A stretch of 36,183 bases of DNA, taken from positions 1 to 36,183 of the forward strand of contig NW_005201792.1 of the NCBI RefSeq assembly GCF_000372725.1. Reading direction: 5' to 3'. The notes under the pieces are model-generated. The model had not been told where the DNA came from and did no database searches. It saw only the letters and a program-made list of their open reading frames with translations. The position numbers and the translations under genes are program-made. This DNA is from Emiliania huxleyi CCMP1516. Its lineage: Eukaryota. This document shows, in pieces, positions 3,261-34,761 of the stretch. The stretch's first letter is position 1. The number at the start of each line of letters is the position of its first letter.

Positions 3261-4882
3261 CCTCGCCGCCGCCGCCACCGCCCTCCCCCCGCCGCTGAGC
3301 GGTGCTTGGCGAGCCTCTCACCGTCCCGGCCGCGGTGGTGCGGGGTGCGCCGACACCGCGACAGCCTGTGCACACTCTCTCCTTCTCTGTACTGTACTGC
3401 GCCGCCGGCGCCGCCACGCATGCAGTTGGGTGCTTGGATCAGCGGCGTGAGCCGAGAGGTGGCCCACCGCTGACAGCGCTCAGCGCGGGGGGGGGGGGGG
3501 GGGCGCCCCCCGCGCCCACACACGCGCGGGACGCGCCCCGGCAGCAGCTCCTGCCTCCTCTCCGCTCTCGCGCCACCCCGCGCGCGGGGGCGTGACGTCC
3601 TGCTCGTTCTCAGCGCAGCGCTCTTGTATTCACACCCGCACAGCACCCTAAGGTATTTTTATATTCCCCCACCCGGGTGAGTGGGTGGGTGGGAATTTTA
3701 TATTTAGCAATATGAGCCGCCGTCCCCCTCTTTCTCGAGTCCGCCGACCGCTATAGGTCGAGCGGGGAGAGAGGCGCTGCCTCCACGGCGGGGACGGAGG
3801 CGACACCTCCGTCCCCACCGCCATTGGTTCGAGCGGCAAGCCTTAGGTAGAGCGGGGACGGAGACGTGAAAAGCGTGCTTGTGAGTGGAAGCCACAAGCG
3901 CGCTGGCTCCGGTCGTTTTTATATGAGGGTGTTTTTCTGAGGGTGTGTTTTCTTGAAGCCTTTCTTAAACTGGGTAACGAACCCCTGTCACTCCGTGAAG
4001 TGAACAGAAGAGAGGTGTGAACAGACTGGCGTGCTGATCGCGAAGAGGCGCCATGTCATCGGACACCGAGAGCACGGTCTGCGACCCGCGGTTAGAGGTC
4101 GCACCCGAGCCGCAAGTCCCCAAGGGGCCGGGCCAGATAAGGCGCGTGCCCCAGCTGTTCTCCTGTTCACAGCAACAGCACGGTCTACCCCTGTCGTCCC
4201 ACCCCAAGTGCAGCAGACGTCTGGTGTAGCGAGGCGACGGTGGGACGGTGTCCGACCCGATCTGGGGTTAAGGTCCCTCGGGCCAGTTTCGGGGGGCAAA
4301 CCCCGCCCGGCCCCTAGAACCCCGGGTAAGGCCCAGGTATGGCCTAGGGCATCAGAAGGGACCAAGAGGAGTCCAGTCTGAGCCATAGAGCCCATGTCTT
4401 TGCCCCCGAAGGTCGCGTTCAAATGCCCGGAACGGACGTTACAGTGGTGTCCGGCCGGCGCGATCACCGAGCTGTGACGCTCAGGGAAGCCGGTTGAGGT
4501 GCTGGTTTCTTTGGCCAGGCCTGGCCAAACGCCTTTACGCTCCTCTTCGCCTTCGCTATGATGAGCCCACCACCATCCCCTCTCTTCCCCCTGGGTGGGA
4601 GACCCTGTCTGTCTATTTCACACACACTCACTGTCTGTCCATGTCAGGCGTGTGTGCGTGTGTGGGGGTTCAGCCGCGAAGCGAGCGGCCCGCCCTCCCC
4701 AGGCGAGCCGCCCGCATCCGCGGAGGACCATCTTGCGATTCGAAAAATGAAAGCCCTACTATCGAAGCAATATCGTACGACAAGGGTCGATCCTCTTCAC
4801 AGCTACCTGGCTACGAACAGGAACGCACCGACCTAGGCTCTTGGGTGGCGCGCCCTAGCTCTTCACAACGAACCTGGTTAGA

Positions 4883-7800
4883 ATGGCGCCCCCGCTCGAG
4901 CTTCGCACTGGCGCGCACTGGATCTTTGGCTACGGCAGCATAATCAGCGAGCGGAGTCTCCAGGCCACTCTGCAAGGTGCGGCAGACTCGGGTCAGGCGG
5001 GTCAGGAGCAGTCCTCGGCCGCTGTGGTCGAAATGGCTGCGAGCGCCGGCTGGGTGAGGGAGTGGTGCTTTCGCGCTCCATCAGGATTCACCGCCGTCGG
5101 CCTGCGCGCGGATAGCGCGTCCGCAATGCCGGTGAACGGCATCATCTTCCGCGTGGGCAGTGACGCCCTCAGCCGCTTTGACGCTCGAGAAGTGGGCTAC
5201 GAGCGAGTGGAGGTCAGTGCTGCCGCGCTTCGAGTACTTATCGACCCCGACGGCGTTGCCACCGACGCGCTGCAGGACACCGGCAACTGCTTCTGGACGT
5301 ACGTGCCGCGCGAGTGCCACTCCGCCACCGAGGAGTGCCCGATCTGTCAAACTTACTTGGACGTCTGCTTGGCTGGCTGCCTCGAGCGCGGAGGGCGCGA
5401 ACTCGCCTCCGAGTGGGTGCGCACGACGAGCGAGTGGTCGCACTTCTGGCTTAACGACGCACCGATGAGTCGGCGGCCGTGGCTCCACCGGCCGCGTTAC
5501 GCCGAGGTCGATAGCGTCCTTCGCGAAGCCTCGGCGCACACGCTTTTTCACGAGCGGCGCCACCCTGAGGAGTTTAGCGGTCGCTGGACGGGCGACCTGC
5601 GCGGGCTGTGGGGCGTGCCGCCGAGAAACCCCTGCTTTGTGGGCCGCGACGCCGCGCTCAGCCGACTGGCGTCGGCCATGCACGGTGGCGAGAGCATACG
5701 GTCGGTCCGCGGCGACGCAGCCAGCGGCGACGCGGGTGGCAGGGAAGCCAGCGGCGAGACGGGTAGCCAACAGGGCGTGCTGACGACAGTGGAGCTCGTG
5801 GGGATGGGCGGTGTGGGCAAGACGCAGCTGGCGACGGAGTACGCGTACCGCCATTTCGCCGCGGCCTCCAAATTAGACGCCAAAGGCTCACGGCGGGCTG
5901 GCTACGGTCTCGTCGTCTGGCTACGTGCTGAGTCGGCCGAGGCCCTCGCCGCAGACTTGCGCAGCGTGGCCAACGACTGCGGCATCGGCGTGCAGGGCTT
6001 GCGCTCGGACCAGGTGATTGCCGTAGCGAGCGGGCCGTAAGAGTGGAAGTCCGCGAGGTACCAGGTGATTGCCGTAGGTGATTGCCGAGATGCGCGCGCG
6101 ACTGTATCGAACGCGCAGCCCGTGGCTGCTCGTGCTCGACAACATGTCCAGCTCCGCCCTCATGTCCAGCTCCGAGAAGGGCGTGCTGCCTCGAGGCTGC
6201 GTGAGCGTTGGCCACGTCCTGGTCACTTCGCGCGTGGCGACGCTCTCGCCCGAGGCGCAGCGCGCGGACGCGCACGCAAACGCGCTCCTGCTCGGCTGCC
6301 TCTCGATCCCAGAGTCGCTCGAGCTGCTGCGCCAGGCGGGCGGCGAACATTTGGGAGTCGACGAGCTCTGCCCCAGAAGCACGAGCTCCGCCCACGCCCG
6401 CACGGACGCCGGCTCGCCGCTCGTGCGACGCCGGGGCGGCTCGCATTCAGGCCCGGTGCACCCGGGTGAGGAAATGCCGACGGCGGGGGTGGTCGTCGCG
6501 GCGAAGCTCGGCTATTTGCCGCTTGCTCTAGCGCTCGCGGCCGCGTACATGCGCGCGTGCGATGTCTCATGCGCAAGCTACCTCCAACGGCTCGCCGAAG
6601 CGAGCGACGGCGCCGGCGCCGCCGCGGGCGCCGAGCTGCTTCAAGGGTACCCTTTGGGCGTCGCCGAGTCGTTTGAGCTCTCGCTGCAGCAGCTGGACGT
6701 GCCCGCCGTCGACGCGGTGTACAAGGGCGGCGGTGGCGCGGAGCGGCCGTCGGCGGCTTCAGTGGGCGCGCGCGACGTGCTTGACGTGCTCGCGTTCTGC
6801 GCGAGCGAGAATATCCCAAAGGGCTTGGTGAGCGCCGCGATCCGCGGGATGGTTGCGTGCGGCGCCGAGCGCGCGCGGGGGCACGAGGCGGCTCAGGCCA
6901 CGGCGGGTGACCCTGCGCCGGAGTCGCGTGCGCCGCTCTCCTCATTTTGGCGGTGGATGGATCCATCAGACGCGAGTGGTGCGCTAACCATCGCTTGCGG
7001 TGGCGTGGCGGCGGGCACGGCGGTAGCAGCCTGCTTGGCACCTCGCCGCCACCGCCGCCGGTGGCTTCTGACCTCCGCAGTGGCCGCGGGTGCCGCGGCG
7101 GCAGCTGCTGCGGCGCTGGCCTTCCGGCGTGCGGACGCCGGCCTACCGCCGACGGCAGCGGGGTCCCCACCAACGGTTCGCTCGGAGGAGCCCGGGGCGT
7201 GCGCGCGCACGCATCCGCAGCCGGTGGCGGCGGCGCATCCGCTGCTGCTGGCGCAGGGCACGGCGCTCTGCGGCGGCGGCGGCGGCGGCGTGCTGCAAGC
7301 GGAGGCAGTGGCGGTCGCCGATCGGACGTGGCTCAAGCTCAAGCAGTTCTCGCTCCTCTCGGTGCGTGAGAACGCACACGGCGAGCGCACTGGCTGCTTG
7401 CACCGGCTGCTCGGCCAGAGCTTGCGCGCGCACATGGACAGCCACGCGGCGGCGCACACACTGGGCGTTTGCGTGTGGGCGCTCGAGCAGCATTGGGCGT
7501 TTGACCCTGCGGACACGACCACATGGACGGCCGCGACGGCGGTTCTCGGCCATGTCCAGGCTGTCGGCCGGCACACGCACGCGCTGCTCCGGGGTGCGGC
7601 CGAGGCAGACGAGTGCGAGGGTGCGGGCGCGGGGCCGGAGCACGAGCTCGTTGCCGCACTCCAGCTCCGAGTCTCGGCGTTGCTCACGCAGGGGGCGCTG
7701 TGCATGTGCTTCGCCCTCTCTCGTTTCGACCAGGCGCAGCAAGCGCTCGAGGCGGCGCGCGCAATCCAGCAGAGCTTGCTCCCGCCCGGCGGCGTGGCGT

Positions 7801-9920
7801 GCGGCGGCGGCGCGTGCAGCCTGCAGCGAGGGCGGGCGCTTACCCTCGACACAGCGGGCAAGGTCGCGCGCTACTCAGGCAAACTGACTGAGGCCGAGGC
7901 GCTGCTCCGAGAGGCGTTGCAGCTCTGGCGCGACAGTGGCGACGAGGGCGGCGCCGCGGCGACGCTGCACGAGCTCGGCGTGGTGCATTTGCGCCGCGCG
8001 GAGTGGGAATCGGCGACGGCGCTACTGAAGCAGTCTCTGGCGATGAAACGCGAGAGGCGCCCGTGTGGGACGACCAACCGCATCGGCAACTGCATCGGCA
8101 AGGCGGCCGCGAGCAGCGGCGGCGGCGGCGTCGGCACGGCACGCCACCACTCGCGATTTCCAACGGAGGCGGCGACGCTTCACCAACTCGCGGTCGCCGC
8201 GATGTCGAGCAAGCCGCCACGGTTGGCAGAGGCGGACGCGCTTCTGCGGGAGGCGCTCGCGCTCGAGGACCAGGGACCTTTTGCACTCGGCGCGCGTGCG
8301 GCGACGCTGCAGCAGCTCGCACGCGTCGCTGAGCGCTGCGGCGACGCGCACGCGGCACGCGCGCACCTCGAGGAGGCGCTGGCGATGCAGACCCGCGCGT
8401 ATGGCGAAGGCGTGGCGCACGTGAACAAGGCGGCGACTCTCTCGCAGCTGGCAAGCCTCGCTCTGCAGTCGGGCGACACTGAGCACGCGTCGCAGGTGCT
8501 CGGCGAGGCCCTCGAGATGCGCCGGCAAATCTACGGCCACGGCGGCGGCCACGTCGAGGTCGCGCTCAATTTGGCCAAGCTCGGTGAGTGCGAGCGCGCG
8601 CGTGGCGGGCTTGCGCTGGCGGCGCACCGCTTCAGCGAGGCTCGAGTGATGCTCGAGGGCCTTGCGCTGCGCGAGGCGCGCGAGGCGCGCGAGGCGGGCG
8701 AGGCGGGCGAGTTGGGCGAGGCGCGCGAGGCGTGTGCCGCGCGGGTGGCGCGTGAGGCCAGCTCCGGCGGAGGCGAGGGGGTCTTGCAGCGGCTGCTGCG
8801 CGTCGTCTCTGTCACGTCGGGCGTGGACAGCGCGCTGCCAGCGAGGCTGCTTTCGCAGCTTCTCCAGGCGATCCGGTGGCAGCGTACCGTCGCCCGCGAG
8901 GCTGGCGAGGGCTTGCGCGCAGCTGAGCTCGCTGCAGAGGCGCAGCAGCTCCAGCACGCTTTGGAGGAGCAAAAGCAGGCCGCAGCTCAGCCGGAGGCCA
9001 CGGAGGACGGCCTGGCCGGCTTTGACCTCAACGGGGCGCTCGTCGCTTCGCTGGTCGCCTGCCGCGATCGCGTGCGCGAGACGCTGCTCGAGATGCGCGC
9101 GGCCGTGAGCCCAGCAGAGGTGCGGCCGTTGCACGGCGCGGCGCCCATCCAGAGTATCCTCGGCGCGGCGGAGGAGCTGGTACAAGTAATTCACGGAGCG
9201 AAGGCAAGGGAGGCGACTGCGGCGACAGGAGGTGCAGCCGAGCCGGAGGGCATGCGCGAGGAGGCCAAGGCAGAGGGGCTGAATGCGGCGCTCCGGTCCT
9301 CGGGGCTCGCGTTTGTGCTGGAGCTGCGAGCCAGTGTGGCGGAGGAGCGTGAGTCGCGCCGCTTCCTGGCGCGAGCATTCGCGGCGTGTGATGGGCTGCG
9401 CAAGAGCCTGCGCGAGGCTGGCGTCTTGCTGACGGATCTGCAGTCTGAGAGCGCCTACCGCTCACGCGTCATCTCGCACGTGAAGCGGCTGGCCTCGACC
9501 GGCGACTACGCTTTGAGCGAGAAGGCGCTGCTCCGGCTGCAAGCCACCTTCGGCTCGCTGACCGTCGACGCTTTCGCCTCGGCGGCGACGGCGCAGCTGC
9601 CTCGCTTCTGGAGTCGCGACGCCGTCCGCGGCGCAGAGGGTATCGACGCCTTCGCTCAGCGGTGGGAAGACGAGCGTCTGCTCGTGCACGCCCCCGTGAG
9701 CTTGCTCAACCAAGTCGTCGAGAAGCTCGAGGCTTCGCCGACGGCATCGGCTGTGGTCGTCTGCCCCTACTGGACGGGCGCCCCCTGGTTTGCGAGCTTC
9801 CAGCGGCTCGCGAGCGACTCGCTCGTGCTGCCACCCGGCTCTCTCCGAGCGATTGCCACCAGGACTAGCCACGTTAAGTGCTGGCGGGCGATCGCCTTTT
9901 ATGTGCCGCCAAGAGAGTAA
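4883..9920 (+). CDS. NLR-like STAND protein: GGCT/ChaC-like domain + NB-ARC + TPR repeats + DIRS-type DNA adenine methyltransferase-like domain; exons 4883-6013 and 6078-9920
   Basis: WIFGYGSIIS...FDAREVGY...QTYLDVCLAGC (GGCT-like); VPPRNPCFVGR, Walker A GMGGVGKTQLA, Walker B WLLVLDN, GHVLVTSR, LGYLPLAL, LHRL (NB-ARC); repeated AATLH(E/Q)L TPR helices; C-terminal TVDAFAS..AQLPRFWS..GIDAFAQRW..VVCPYW..APWF. A 64-nt GT-AG intron (6014-6077) joins the two ORFs in frame. Confidence 0.85.
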
Positions 9921-10243
9921 AGGCGCGACGGTGTTAAAGTCTCACCTCACGGAACTCGTGTGTCGGACCCTCGCGCGCCCTGCGCGCCCGGGCGCCCAGG
10001 AGTCCCCCCGAGAGACCGAGAGTTTCCCGCGTGCTCCCCCCACACCACCCCGAGGCCCGAGGGTGCCGAGAGTCCCGTAATTTCGCCTCTACGGTCTACG
10101 CCTTTACTGGTTCATACTTGCAGATGTGCAGATACGCCCACCGCCACGGCGTACGGCTCTACCGAGAGATAAAAATACGGCCACCTGTCAATTGGACATC
10201 GATCATCGTGTACGTGCACGCTCTCTACTTCAAGGATCAGCAT

Positions 10244-13200
10244 TCAGGGCATCCGAATGGTCAGAGTCCGCGGCCGCTCACTCCAAGCAGCGGCCCCCAG
10301 GAGATGCCTGCCGAGCAGGTCGAGCTGCGCGACCGCATCGGCGGCGTGCTCGCGCAGCAGCGGGTCCGCGGCGCCGTCGCGCGTCAGCCGCAACTGCGCG
10401 TAGATCTGCCGCAGCTGCGAGGGCGGGAGGACTGCCGCCCCGTCGGTGCCGAGCTGCTGCAGCGTCAAGCCCACGAGGTAGGCGGCGGCGCGCGCCTCGT
10501 CGACGCACGCACGCTCCTCCGCGCTGCCGCCGTCCCCGGGCTCCTCCGTCTCGCGCGCAGGCGCGGCTGCTGGCGCGGCCGATGAGGTGGAAGCGGCCGA
10601 ATCCAGCCTGCGCCGATCGGCCTCTGCGGCGGCGGCCTGGAACAGCGCGTTGTTCCGGTGCGGCTGCAGCGCCGACGTGGCGAGCGTGAGCAGCTCGACT
10701 GCGTACGGATGCAGCGCCTGGTGCATGAATGCGGGGGACCGGGGTTGAGAGTGCGTTATCATGCCGTGTATTCAGAACGGCGCGCGAGGAGGAGAGAGCT
10801 TCGCATACAGTTACAGCGACTACGACGCGGAGCGCGGAGTACAGCCGAATTCCGCGGGCCGCGTGTCGCCTCAAGTCCTGCTCGTTGAAGTCCAGGGACC
10901 TGTTTTCCGCATCTAGGGGTGCAGCGCTAGCCGCAGCGTGGAGGCCGCCGTCGCCAGCGCGGCGAGGCACGAAGCGCGGATAGCGGCGCAATCGTCGCGG
11001 GCACCGGCGAGGAGCGCCGCCATGGCGGCGTCGGCGTGGGGGGGGAGGGTCGCCCCCAAACGGAGCACGGCCTGGCACAGCGCCTGGGCGCCCTTGAGCC
11101 GCCGCTCGGTCGCGGCAGCTGCCCTCGCCTCGCAAGCGGCGGAGGGCCGGCGGCCAAGCTGCGGCTTGCCCTGTGGCAGGAGAAGCTCGGCGAGGCGCGG
11201 CATCACCGTGCGCGGCGAAACCTCGGCCGCCGCGGCGAGCGCGTTGAGGGCCGCCTGGTAGACGAAGGAGTCGTCGTGGGCCAACCGCAGCTTCGCGAGC
11301 TCGAGCAGCTGGCGGCGAGGGGCGGCGGCGGTGAGGGGGAGACCCACGGCAGGGGCGGCGAGCAAGGCGGAGAGGGGTGGATGCGACGGCGGGCGAGAAG
11401 CCCACCTGGGCCGCGGCGCGCGAGCTCAGAGGAAGGTGTCTGGGAAATGTCGAGGAGACAGGAACGCTCCGCGTCTAGCCGGTCAGTGTCTACGAGGAAG
11501 TGTCTGGAAGCGTCACCTCCTCCAACCGGCCAAGCGCCGCCTCCGAACGGCGAAGCAGCGCGTGCCGCACCTAGTGTGAATACTGGGACTTGAGTACGGT
11601 CTCGTGCCATGTGTTCGGCGCATCGCGTGAAGACTACAGCGGCAATACAGCTCGAAGGCAGTCGAATGCCTTCTCGAGCGCCGGCTGGAGACTAGGGCCC
11701 GTCTTCCGCATCTGGGGCCTCGAGATAGGGGGAGATGTTCCGCATCTAGGGCACCGCCACCGCCGCCAGCCCGGCGGCGACGCGGTACGGCTCCGCACGG
11801 CCGACGTCTCGCACCGCCTCTCTTAGCTCCGCCAGCTGCGCGGGCGAGTCCACCTGTGCCCCGGCGGGGATCGGTGGGCCAGGAGCGGTGTGCAAGCCTT
11901 GCGGTGTGCAAGCCTTGCGGTGTGCAAGCCTTGCGGTGTGCAAGCCTTGCGGTGTGCAAGCCTCGCGGGGCGAAGGGCCTGCTGCGGCCAAGGGTCTCGG
12001 AAGTGTCTCGGAAGGGGCTGCTCGGGAGGTGCGAGGTCGTAGTGTGCTGTCAATCTCGGGTGATCTCGGTGTCTTAGGCGACCTGGGGAAGTCTCGGAAG
12101 TGTCTCGGAAGTGTCTCTGAGGGCCTCCACGAGCCCAAGCGGCGGCGGGGTGCGCCCCCGCGGCTCCTCCTCGGCGAGGGACGTGGCGACCAGCAGCGAC
12201 GCGGCGAGGGCGGCGGCGCGAGGCGCCAGCGCTGCAGGCCCCGTGGCGGCGCACTGCTGCAGCGGCCCGAGCAGCCGCTCCCGAAGCCTCCGCTTGAGGG
12301 AGGGATGCTGCTGCGCCGCTTGCAGCAAGCACCCCCCAATCTGGAGGCAGAGGCTCAGGGTGCCACCCCCCTCCTCCTCCGCCTCCGCCTCCTCCTCCTC
12401 GTCGTCGTGATCGTCGCCACCGCCGCCGCCCCTCCCGCTCCCCCTCCTGCCCCCGCTCCCCGCAGCCCCCGCCGAGAGCAGCGACGCAAGCAGCGCCTAC
12501 GGGGCGGCGGGCGGCGGCATGGGACGGTCGCCGACTTGGTGCCCCGCCCCCCGCCCCCCCGCCCCCCGCCCCCCCCCTCCCCCCTCCCCGGCGCGCGCGC
12601 CAGCAGCGACGCGTTCGCGCCCTCCGCCCCGCCGTCCGCCCCGCCGTCCACAGCGCCTGGCTTGGCGACCTTTGAACCGGCCGCCGCCGCCGCCTCGGCC
12701 GCCGCGGCCGCCTCGGCCGCCGCGGCCGCCTCCGCCTCGGCCTCCGCAATCTGCGCGGCCAGCGCCGCGGAGTCTACGTCCTCGAGCAGCGGCGCGAGCA
12801 GCCCCTGAAGCCGGAGCAGCTGCAGCCCCGCCGCGGGCGCCGCGTCGCCGCCGCCCACCACTGCCGCCGCCGCGAGCAGCGCGCGCCGCAGCAGCAGCGC
12901 GACGAGGCTGCAGCCCACGCCTTGCAGCTCCGTCGAGCGGAGCGCACCCCGCGCCGCGCGCCGGAGTGAAGGGGAGGCCAACTCCGGCCCGCCGCCCGCC
13001 GCCGCCTCGCCGCCCGCCTCGCCGCCCGCCTCCTCCGCGAGAAGCGCCGAAGCGAGAGCCGCGGCGGGGGCGCTCGCGCCTCGGAGGAGCGCAGTCAGTG
13101 CCTCGCCCGCCGCCAGCTCCGCCGCCGTCGCGCCAGAGGCGCGCCGCGCCGCGAGCAGCCCGAGGAGCGCCTGCAGCGCGCCTGCTCACGGCCAGACGCG

Positions 13201-17576: not shown

Positions 17577-20448
<2,872 letters not shown>

Positions 20449-33288: not shown

Positions 33289-34761
33289 CGGGGCAAAAGG
33301 GCAAAACCGAAAACGGCCGTCCACGTAAGCTCTCTGACATTACCATTCACGGCATCACCGACCACCTCACCAAACGCATCACGAGAAAAACAAAACCGAA
33401 CTGCATACGAAACTGGAAGAAGCGGGTCCGATTCAGAATCGACTTTAAAAAAGTGTTTAGCTCGTTCGGCACCCCGCTCTCAGACGACGCCGAGGAGAGG
33501 CAGTGGAGAAAGTACGTCCACAGAGCGATTAACGTCCGCAACCGAAACCCAGCGCTCACAGAGCACAAATGCCGTTTGTGCAACCGAGAAGAGGAGAGCA
33601 TGCTGCACCTAGTCAAATGCTGCCACACAAAACCACTATGGAAAAAATGCCTAAAATTCTGCCACGAGGTGCTGGAAGCGCCCGACATGATCGACAAACT
33701 AAAGAGGGCCATAATATTCAATCAAGACCAAAAGAAAGACATGCTACCAGAAGCGGCATGCGCCTTTATACGACACGCATTTAATATCTTCTACCATGAC
33801 TTCGCAAACGTCGAAAAGGGCCACATCTTTGTATGGCAAAAGGTATACTACAGAGCCCTCACGTCCTTTCGAAGGGCGGCGATGCGATACGCGGGGAAAA
33901 TCAGACTACAACACACTCATCGGATATACACCGACCTTACAGCGGAGGTCTCGGAAGAGAGCAGGAAGAAATTCGAGCAGATAATCGAGATAGACACCAC
34001 AGGGGTCTCGGGGCTCATGCCAGACTTCAAAGACGCGATCACAGCAGCGCTGACCAGCCTCAAGGCCATATCCGACGCGGACATGAGGAGCCTCGCAACA
34101 GCCCAAAATAACCAGCAATACCATCACACGAGGCGAACACAACGTGCATGACCCGAGATCGACCCGAGATCGACCCGAGATCGACCCGAGACCGACCCGA
34201 GATCGACCCGAGATCGACCCGAGATCGACCCGAAATCGACCCGAGATCGACCCGACATCGACCCGACATCGACCCGAGATCGGCACGAGCGATCAACCCA
34301 ACAATGCCCCAAAGCCCCCTCTCTGGGGGACCCCCCCTCATCCCGAGTGTCCGTGTCCTTCGCGAGTCACCGATGGGGAGCGGGGGGGGGTGCGAGATGC
34401 ACAGGGGAGGCTGGGGAGGGGGGGGTCCACTCTGAAGACTGCCGACCGCGGGGGGGTTTTGTCCCACAGGGTTTTACCCTCCGCGTGAGGATCGGCGCGG
34501 CGAGGGGGTAGGTTCGAATTCGCCGCGCAACATTTCACCCCCACAGGACCCCGCCCACCCCCCCTCATGGTCCCACCTAGTACCCCAATGAGCCTTCGCA
34601 CCCCCTCCTTGCGCAGTGTCCCCCACTATGTGTCGCCGTTATCGGGGCATGCTATCCTGTGTAGTCAGGGCAAGTGGGGGCGGGGGGCAGTCCCTCTGGT
34701 CTGATACTGGTGTGGTTCTGTCCCTAGTCTCGGAGGGGGGCTTGAAGCTAAGAATATTTTT
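33289..34761 (+). mobile_element. 5'-truncated LINE (L1/Tx1-like) ORF2 C-terminus with zf-RVT zinc knuckle, 3' UTR and 15-bp TSD
   Basis: A-rich ORF to 34151 with CRLCNREEESMLHLVKCCHTKPLW (CxxC..E...H...C); direct repeat tttgatgaccttatg at 33274-33288 and 34762-34776. Confidence 0.85.
34150..34281 (+). repeat. 11-nt tandem repeat (gacccgagatc) x~12 in the LINE 3' UTR
   Basis: Directly visible; begins at the LINE stop codon. Confidence 0.95.

What the first reader, a model, noticed from the sequence alone, without database searches (positions are those of the whole stretch)
9495..9920. Integrated DIRS-type adenine methyltransferase domain with degenerate catalytic motif (possible decoy)
DYALSEKALLRLQATFGSLTVDAFASAATAQLPRFWS...GAEGIDAFAQRWEDERLLVHAPVSLL...AVVVCPYWTGAPWF follows the MT domain found after RNase H in DIRS retrotransposons. 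The catalytic (N/F)PP(F/W) motif reads HAPV, and no RT, RNase H or recombinase flanks it. An intact in-frame fusion with a dead active site resembles the integrated decoy domains of plant NLRs (inference) and would be a domesticated transposon domain.
Basis: partly seen in the sequence, partly recalled or inferred. Interest (0 to 1): 0.8.

Follow-up and report, generated by a model that had tools for sequence, protein, structure and literature searches.

The report
Transposon methyltransferase domesticated in algal ATPase
An algal signalling-ATPase gene carries a retrotransposon's methyltransferase domain on its tail, kept under purifying selection across diverged species; the domain is likely non-catalytic and would serve as a ligand-sensing module, and its damaged catalytic motif was mostly inherited from the transposon rather than made afresh as a decoy.

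Summary
Observation confirmed. Bases 9501-9917 encode a DIRS-type adenine-methyltransferase domain: 40-48% identical to C-termini of RT-RNase H polyproteins, fold closest to PCIF1/CAPAM (Z 12.6). It ends a 1657-aa gene: GGCT-like domain, NB-ARC-type ATPase, TPRs, short helical domain, methyltransferase. Orthologues 51-57% identical keep the fusion and HAPV. dN/dS is 0.11-0.32 in 10 of 10 pairs. Spliced RNA assemblies cover the domain. None of 93 other family members (diatoms, a dinoflagellate, unnamed) has it, and 69 of 93 end at the motif after which it is appended. So this is one old domestication. The decoy story is weaker. The nearest DIRS elements already read HPP[P/V/A/L], so Asn-to-His and loss of the aromatic predate the fusion; His is allowed in the [DNSH]PP[YFW] motif, and DIRS methyltransferases were already called likely inactive (PMC4738411). 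No pathogen target or diversifying selection was seen. A second host family, filamin-repeat proteins, carries the same DIRS sub-clade domain. Best guess: a non-catalytic cofactor/nucleic-acid-binding input module; untested. The scan's earlier notes held nothing similar.

The parts
4883..6013 (+). Exon 1 of the host gene (ATG at 4883): GGCT/ChaC-like domain and first half of the NB-ARC-type ATPase
   Evidence: collinear with full-length orthologues P0006, P0008, P0207
4922..5599 (+). N-terminal gamma-glutamylcyclotransferase (GGCT/ChaC)-fold domain, candidate effector; invariant D-x-R-E-x-G-Y
   Evidence: model pLDDT 91.8; Foldseek top hits YkqA, ChaC2, GGCT, E 2e-4 to 1e-3, TM(query) 0.32-0.51; invariant columns in 28 sequences; Pfam GGACT only E 0.11
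5801..5824 (+). Walker A, GMGGVGKT, intact
   Evidence: 92 of 93 family members keep it
6014..6077 (+). 64-nt GT-AG intron flanked by a short direct repeat
   Evidence: skipped in RNA contigs of X15, X13 and X7; removal gives a 1657-aa frame
6078..9920 (+). Exon 2: rest of ATPase, hydrophobic hairpin, TPRs, helical domain, DIRS-type MT domain, stop
6981..7121 (+). Two hydrophobic segments split by RRHRRR, predicted membrane hairpin inside the ATPase module
   Evidence: hydropathy scan: a pair at this place in 6 of 11 proteins scanned, a single segment in 2, none in 3
7719..8657 (+). TPR repeats (sensor region)
   Evidence: PF13424 E 6e-19, PF13374 E 7e-15
9384..9440 (+). Ancestral C-terminal helix motif ACDxLRxxLRxxGxxLTD; family members without MT end here; weakly like the CysRS anticodon-binding domain
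   Evidence: PDB top two hits CysRS at E 0.035 and 0.063; CysS_C E 0.005 in 1 of 16 proteins
9441..9500 (+). Junction/linker, loosely like the last RNase H helix that precedes the MT domain in DIRS pol
   Evidence: by eye only; tblastn matches start at 9420-9486
9501..9917 (+). DIRS-derived N6-adenine methyltransferase-like domain: VDAFAS 9564-9581, HAPV 9687-9698, CPYW

Best explanation
A DIRS retrotransposon's methyltransferase domain is fused to the C-terminus of a conserved algal GGCT-like/NB-ARC/TPR protein and is kept by purifying selection; it is likely a non-catalytic binding module that would feed a ligand signal (SAM/SAH, or nucleic acid) into the ATPase switch, which would in turn control the N-terminal GGCT-like enzyme. 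Shown: the fusion, DIRS kinship, one gain within an older gene family, constraint, presence in RNA, and that most motif degeneration predates the fusion. Inferred: loss of catalysis (no adenine-stacking aromatic, first Pro lost), a retained cofactor pocket, a new ligand surface, and coupling to the ATPase.
For: Position at the sensor end, behind the TPRs and directly after the family's ancestral C-terminal motif. MT-bearing genes form one clade, support 100, among 97 rows. dN/dS 0.11 (95% 0.05-0.21) in the least saturated pair and 0.11-0.32 in 10 of 10 pairs, like the GGCT (0.17) and ATPase (0.15) parts. HAPV is kept with varying synonymous codons. Fold intact, pLDDT 94.3, closest to CAPAM. 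The Asp of VDAFAS and the Asp of DAFAQ are kept in 13 of 13 fused rows (their role as cofactor contacts is inferred). In the last loop the fused clade fixes basic residues (R118 92%, R123 85%, H126 85%, R131 85%) that the donor clade does not fix; by topology this loop matches CAPAM's substrate-binding loop (inference, PMC8287941). Loss of the first residue plus the aromatic marks inactive METTL14 (PMC8287941); DIRS MTases are called likely inactive (PMC4738411) and gave no methylation in E. coli (10.64898/2026.05.21.726589).
Against: No binding, activity or activation was tested. His in first place is compatible with catalysis ([DNSH]PP[YFW], PMC4738411), is kept in 12 of 13 fused rows, and the 13th has Asn. 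Most family members work without the domain (0 of 93), so it is accessory. The GGCT assignment rests on moderate fold scores.
Confidence: 0.5

Rival explanations
1. Integrated decoy in the plant sense: the domain mimics a host methyltransferase (for example PCIF1-like) that a virus or bacterium targets, and effector binding fires the STAND protein.
For: NLR-like order effector-NB-ARC-TPR with an extra terminal domain; the family profile hits Roq1, ZAR1-type, NRC and Apaf-1. Fold mimics PCIF1; giant viruses carry PCIF1-like folds. Retrotransposon domains occur as plant NLR fusions (PMC4759884, passages).
Against: Degeneration predates the fusion. About 13-18% identity to CAPAM makes a poor mimic. 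No diversifying signal: domain-wide dN/dS is low, and within-cluster domain differences are 0-2 of 138 residues in 11 of 11 comparisons. No partner NLR among the 30 of 104 window ORFs scanned. No effector is known.
Confidence: 0.15
2. Bait against the element itself: the domain engages DIRS polyprotein or DIRS RNA/DNA intermediates, so the protein acts as a retroelement sensor.
For: HPP-type DIRS elements with open pol and recombinase frames occur in GC-rich aquatic metagenome contigs. DIRS MT was proposed to bind element transcripts (PMC4738411).
Against: No whole genome was held, so co-occurrence of these elements with this gene in one genome is not shown. The fused clade diverged from the donor on a long stem (0.45) and changed the putative substrate loop.
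Confidence: 0.12
3. An active but atypical N6-methyltransferase (or amine methyltransferase) controlled by the STAND switch.
For: His is a legal catalytic residue (PMC4738411). It is kept in 12 of 13 fused rows, 27 of 27 filamin-fusion rows and 23 of 23 nearest DIRS rows; one orthologue has NAPV. The Trp of the CPYW motif is invariant in the 13 fused rows.
Against: No stacking aromatic and first Pro replaced; no auxiliary substrate domain like CAPAM's helical domain; no activity from DIRS DAMs in E. coli (10.64898/2026.05.21.726589, which tested other sequences and calls the result possibly technical).
Confidence: 0.15
4. A passenger: a recent or neutral insertion read through by chance, or an assembly artefact.
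For: The family functions without it elsewhere. The only contig bridging the junction in a spliced run also runs into the convergent neighbour gene and is unstranded.
Against: Same fusion at the same junction in orthologues only 51-57% identical; dN/dS far below 1; an independent contig, L001, is 100% identical; a DNA contig spans 7208-10300.
Confidence: 0.08

Closest known systems
DIRS1-like retrotransposon MT/DAM domain (PF05869-like; PMC3266345, PMC4738411, 10.64898/2026.05.21.726589)
   Same: Sequence (40-48% to nearest pol C-termini), motifs xDY, DAFAS, DAFxQxW, PxW, fold; placed among RT-linked domains in the tree
   Different: No RT, RNase H or recombinase; fused to a host gene; HAPV instead of NPP[FW] or HPPx; scores no Pfam Dam hit, so the 2026 screen (E 1e-5 cut-off) would likely miss it; that paper reads orphan DAMs as decaying remnants
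PCIF1/CAPAM cap-adenosine N6-methyltransferase
   Same: Closest solved fold (Z 12.6, rmsd 2.8, 142 aligned; Foldseek TM 0.70)
   Different: 13-18% identity; no NPPF, no WW or helical domain
Plant NLRs with integrated domains (RRS1-WRKY, RGA5/Pik-HMA; PMC4759884)
   Same: STAND ATPase with repeats and an added terminal domain gained in one lineage
   Different: TPR not LRR; GGCT-like N-terminus; donor is a transposon domain, not a known effector target; no effector or paired NLR shown
METTL14-type pseudo-methyltransferases (PMC8287941)
   Same: Fold kept, catalytic aromatic lost, likely binding role
   Different: Unrelated subfamily; here His is retained and the partner is a STAND protein in cis

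Membership tests
DIRS-type MT/DAM domain | Sequence homology to the domain after RNase H in DIRS pol | tested here: met
DIRS-type MT/DAM domain | Nearest relatives sit in elements with RT-RH-MT and an overlapping tyrosine recombinase ORF | tested here: met
   8 of 10 overlapping ORFs with H-S-x-R motif, one Pfam integrase hit; terminal repeats not examined, so DIRS1 versus PAT is open
DIRS-type MT/DAM domain | N6-MTase Rossmann fold related to PCIF1 | tested here: met
Intact DIRS retrotransposon | RT, RNase H and recombinase around the MT domain | tested here: not met
   only 9420-9917 matches
Active N6-adenine methyltransferase | [DNSH]PP[YFW] motif | tested here: not met
   H-A-P-V: place 1 allowed, places 2 and 4 not
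Active N6-adenine methyltransferase | Methyl transfer from SAM | not testable with these tools
   needs an assay
Domesticated transposon domain | Fixed at an orthologous position across diverged species | tested here: met
Domesticated transposon domain | Purifying selection | tested here: met
Domesticated transposon domain | Present in the host mRNA | tested here: inconclusive
   covered by contigs in polyA/cDNA runs, and bridged in a spliced but unlabelled run; contigs are unstranded
STAND/NLR-like protein | NB-ARC-type P-loop with Walker A/B and C-terminal repeats | tested here: met
NLR with integrated decoy | Added domain mimics a host target of a pathogen effector and binds it | not testable with these tools
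   no effector known
NLR with integrated decoy | Loss of activity after integration | tested here: not met
   His and the missing aromatic are already in the donor clade; only P>A and fixed V follow integration
NLR with integrated decoy | Immune function, paired helper NLR | tested here: inconclusive
   none in 30 of 104 window ORFs scanned; no genome held

The most novel reading that the evidence does not exclude
Plankton algae have twice domesticated one His-Pro-Pro sub-clade of DIRS pseudo-methyltransferases, once on filamin-repeat proteins and once on a membrane-anchored NLR-like protein, where it senses retroelement or viral nucleic acid (or SAM drain by viral methyltransferases) and switches on a glutathione-degrading GGCT/ChaC effector: an algal immune receptor whose sensor was taken from a transposon.
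Probability: 0.2. Interest if true: 0.85.

Novelty: new variant of a known kind. Interest (0 to 1): 0.6.

Why it matters
The function of the DIRS methyltransferase domain is an old open question (PMC3266345: unknown; PMC4738411: likely inactive; the 2026 preprint found no activity in E. coli and treats orphan copies as remnants). A host gene that has kept the domain under selection, without RT, shows that the domain has a use apart from transposition. It also gives a clean test system: one protein family with and without the domain at a mapped junction. A second host family with the same sub-clade suggests repeated recruitment. My searches found no paper on this fusion or on the GGCT-NB-ARC-TPR family (open-access library only; bioRxiv supplements were closed and may list such proteins).

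Tried and rejected
Pfam scan of the window domain: no hit. PDB sequence searches with the domain profile and with the N-terminal domain: nothing significant. Viral contigs: 0 relatives among 41 pattern matches; the wider alignment A3 was too diverse to search with. No whole genome is held, so copy number and co-resident DIRS elements are unknown. RNA runs X11 and X12 keep the intron and run through intergenic DNA, so they were not used as expression evidence. Two TPR rows (window-L002, window-L008) aligned only 67 and 116 codons, probably because I cut them out of frame; I discarded them. The AU test did not reject one clade for STAND plus filamin fusions (p 0.072), so two independent captures from DIRS are favoured, not shown. 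No shared neighbouring genes between the window and loci other than L001. The atlas search of the N-terminal domain gave only leads, scores 0.78-0.79. Naming the organism failed: cluster look-ups gave no species for MT-bearing genes, and the intron literature search gave no haptophyte figure. One paper search timed out. No complex prediction was run: too few paired sequences for a useful TPR-MT test. The one earlier finding returned was unrelated.

Full report
Observation. An upstream frame, 4859-6040, carries a FGYGS-type N-terminus and Walker A GMGGVGKT. A 64-nt GT-AG intron (6014-6077) is skipped in RNA contigs of X15, X13 and X7; removing it gives one protein of 1657 aa. The organism is a GC-rich eukaryote with 5 of 7 enolase introns GC-AG. 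I take it for a haptophyte alga from recall of that trait; this is not shown, and pelagophytes also use GC-AG in about 14-17% of introns (10.1101/2024.10.30.620910, passage).

The domain is DIRS-derived. The window sequence has no Pfam hit of its own. Among longer proteins, 10 of 19 hits are host-type fusions or their fragments and 9 of 19 are RT/RNase H polyproteins, matched at their C-termini at 36-48%. A full-library search found 3432 relatives at E<=0.001, of which 150 were listed. 47 of 76 aligned members match PF05869 Dam. In element loci a second frame overlaps pol, and 8 of 10 such frames show an H-S-x-R recombinase motif. That is the DIRS layout described in PMC3266345 (passages); terminal repeats were not examined. 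The model (pLDDT 94.3) is closest to cap-specific adenosine methyltransferase CAPAM/PCIF1 (Foldseek E 1.3e-5, TM 0.70; Z 12.6, rmsd 2.8, 142 aligned, next row 10.1). This agrees with PMC4738411 (passages and section 7), which groups DIRS1 MTases with PCIF1. Nothing else of a retroelement lies in the window.

The host gene and the gain. A search with the N-terminal 480 residues found 326 proteins, 120 listed, including named diatoms and Prorocentrum. The N-terminal domain folds like GGCT/ChaC (moderate scores). The family profile hits AfsR, Roq1, a ZAR1-type protein, NRCs and Apaf-1; Walker A is intact in 92 of 93 members. A profile of the MT domain finds it in 5 of 5 known fusions tested and in none of the 109 other proteins (93 family members, 15 prokaryote-type proteins, and the truncated P0018; best E 2.6). 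69 of the 93 end 6-76 residues after an xCDxLR motif. Twelve stop within 8 residues and may be cut at an intron, but several named transcriptome entries also end shortly after the motif. In the window the same motif lies at 9384-9440, and the MT domain starts 20 codons after its end. In a 97-row tree of the N-terminal part, the five MT-labelled rows plus P0018 form one clade with support 100 (FastTree; P0009 was labelled by overlap with P0007, and P0018 is unresolved). So an old gene gained the domain once, at its ancestral end.

Selection and expression. Full-length or near full-length orthologues 51-57% identical all keep the domain and HAPV. Counting-method dN/dS over about 135 codons is 0.11 (95% 0.05-0.21) for L008-L006 and 0.11-0.32 in 10 of 10 pairs, upper bounds at most 0.50; the GGCT and ATPase parts give 0.17 and 0.15. 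dS is near saturation in the deep pairs and GC3 is 0.80-0.94, so those values are rough. HAPV codons vary only synonymously in 8 sequences, about four species-level lineages. RNA contigs cover 9516-9694 (X15, polyA), 9705-9877 (X16, polyA) and 9668-9927 (X13). One contig of X7, a run with the intron spliced but no library record, bridges 8707-10700. These contigs are unstranded and the last one enters the convergent neighbour, so a single transcript is likely, not proven. No joint that skips the domain appears in the 8 runs laid.

The motif. Of 84 RT-linked relatives, 38 start the motif with His and 35 with Asn. In a 54-row tree (chosen from 146 rows), the fused clade (100/99) is sister to a DIRS clade with HPP[P/V/A/L] plus filamin fusions (99/91), with the remaining RT-linked rows, mostly NPP-type, used as outgroup. 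In the 23 hand-picked HPP-clade rows, His-Pro-Pro is invariant and the fourth residue is never aromatic. The Thr after DAFAS, where NPP-type elements have Asn, is also shared. So the main damage is ancestral, and only Pro>Ala and a fixed Val are new. The general motif is [DNSH]PP[YFW], the aromatic stacking on the target base (PMC4738411, section 7; PMC8287941, passages), so His alone does not kill activity, but losing the aromatic should. PMC4738411 already calls all DIRS1 MTases likely inactive, and the 2026 preprint (10.64898/2026.05.21.726589; parts 1-4 of 5 read, supplements closed) saw no methylation in E. coli. That preprint has no mention of 'domestic', 'TPR', 'NB-ARC' or 'filamin' in its main text.

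A second capture. 28 of 165 relatives are filamin-repeat proteins with an HPPx domain. In the tree the 12 included form a clade (99/94) nested in the DIRS clade next to P0055 (98/93), apart from the STAND fusion. Forcing both fusions together costs 27 log-likelihood units but is not rejected (p-AU 0.072).

Mechanism. The domain sits at the sensor end of an effector-ATPase-TPR protein. It keeps its fold and both conserved aspartates, and has fixed new basic residues in its last loop, which by topology would match CAPAM's substrate loop. I therefore favour a non-catalytic binding module for SAM/SAH or nucleic acid that would tune the ATPase switch and the GGCT-like effector (0.5; the domestication itself I put near 0.92). 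A strict integrated decoy (0.15), an atypical active enzyme (0.15), an anti-DIRS bait (0.12) and a passenger (0.08) remain. It is built like an NLR with an integrated domain (PMC4759884, passages), but it fails the test of activity lost after integration, and the effector test could not be run, so I do not file it as one.

Verdict. Real; a new variant of known kinds (transposon domestication, STAND accessory domains). It was not found in print by searches, of which I saw listings only, apart from the papers cited above. Interest 0.6.

Noticed in passing
P0071, P0079, P0080, P0103, P0165 and others (not in the window): A family of filamin-repeat proteins (some with SH3 or EF-hand hits) carries the same HPP-type DIRS methyltransferase domain, 28 of 165 relatives; a second likely domestication
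   Followed up: partly
window 4883-9440: The host family itself, GGCT/ChaC-like + NB-ARC + TPR, is widespread in diatoms and other plankton with a highly conserved N-terminal domain; no paper found
   Followed up: partly
window 6981-7121: A predicted two-helix membrane hairpin interrupts the ATPase module, also in distant family members; unusual for STAND proteins (recalled)
   Followed up: partly
window 9384-9440; P0304, P0310, P0352, P0391: The family's ancestral C-terminal motif weakly resembles the CysRS anticodon-binding domain; three members end instead in a tail that looks like the eukaryotic CysRS C-terminal extension (recalled, untested)
   Followed up: partly
window 6014-6077: The intron is bounded by a direct repeat of the exon junction and is absent at this place in L002: possibly an intron gained by tandem duplication
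   Followed up: no
window 4700-4880: A very high-copy repeat sits just upstream of the start codon (depth 11785 against about 70-100 in X6)
   Followed up: no
L018 691-1165, L019 714-1188: Copies of the fused-type domain broken by AT-rich introns; L019 has a duplicated exon piece
   Followed up: no
window 17578-20106 (-): Enolase gene with an N-terminal extension and 7 introns, 5 of them GC-AG
   Followed up: partly
window 8161-8164: The window differs here from X6, X11, X12, X13 and X16 but not from X7: an allele or an assembly error
   Followed up: no
window 34153-34281: A cluster of CCGAGATC-type short repeats; similar motifs lie in an enolase intron
   Followed up: no
L015 5414-9175 (-): A teneurin-like EGF-repeat gene lies next to a DIRS element
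   Followed up: no
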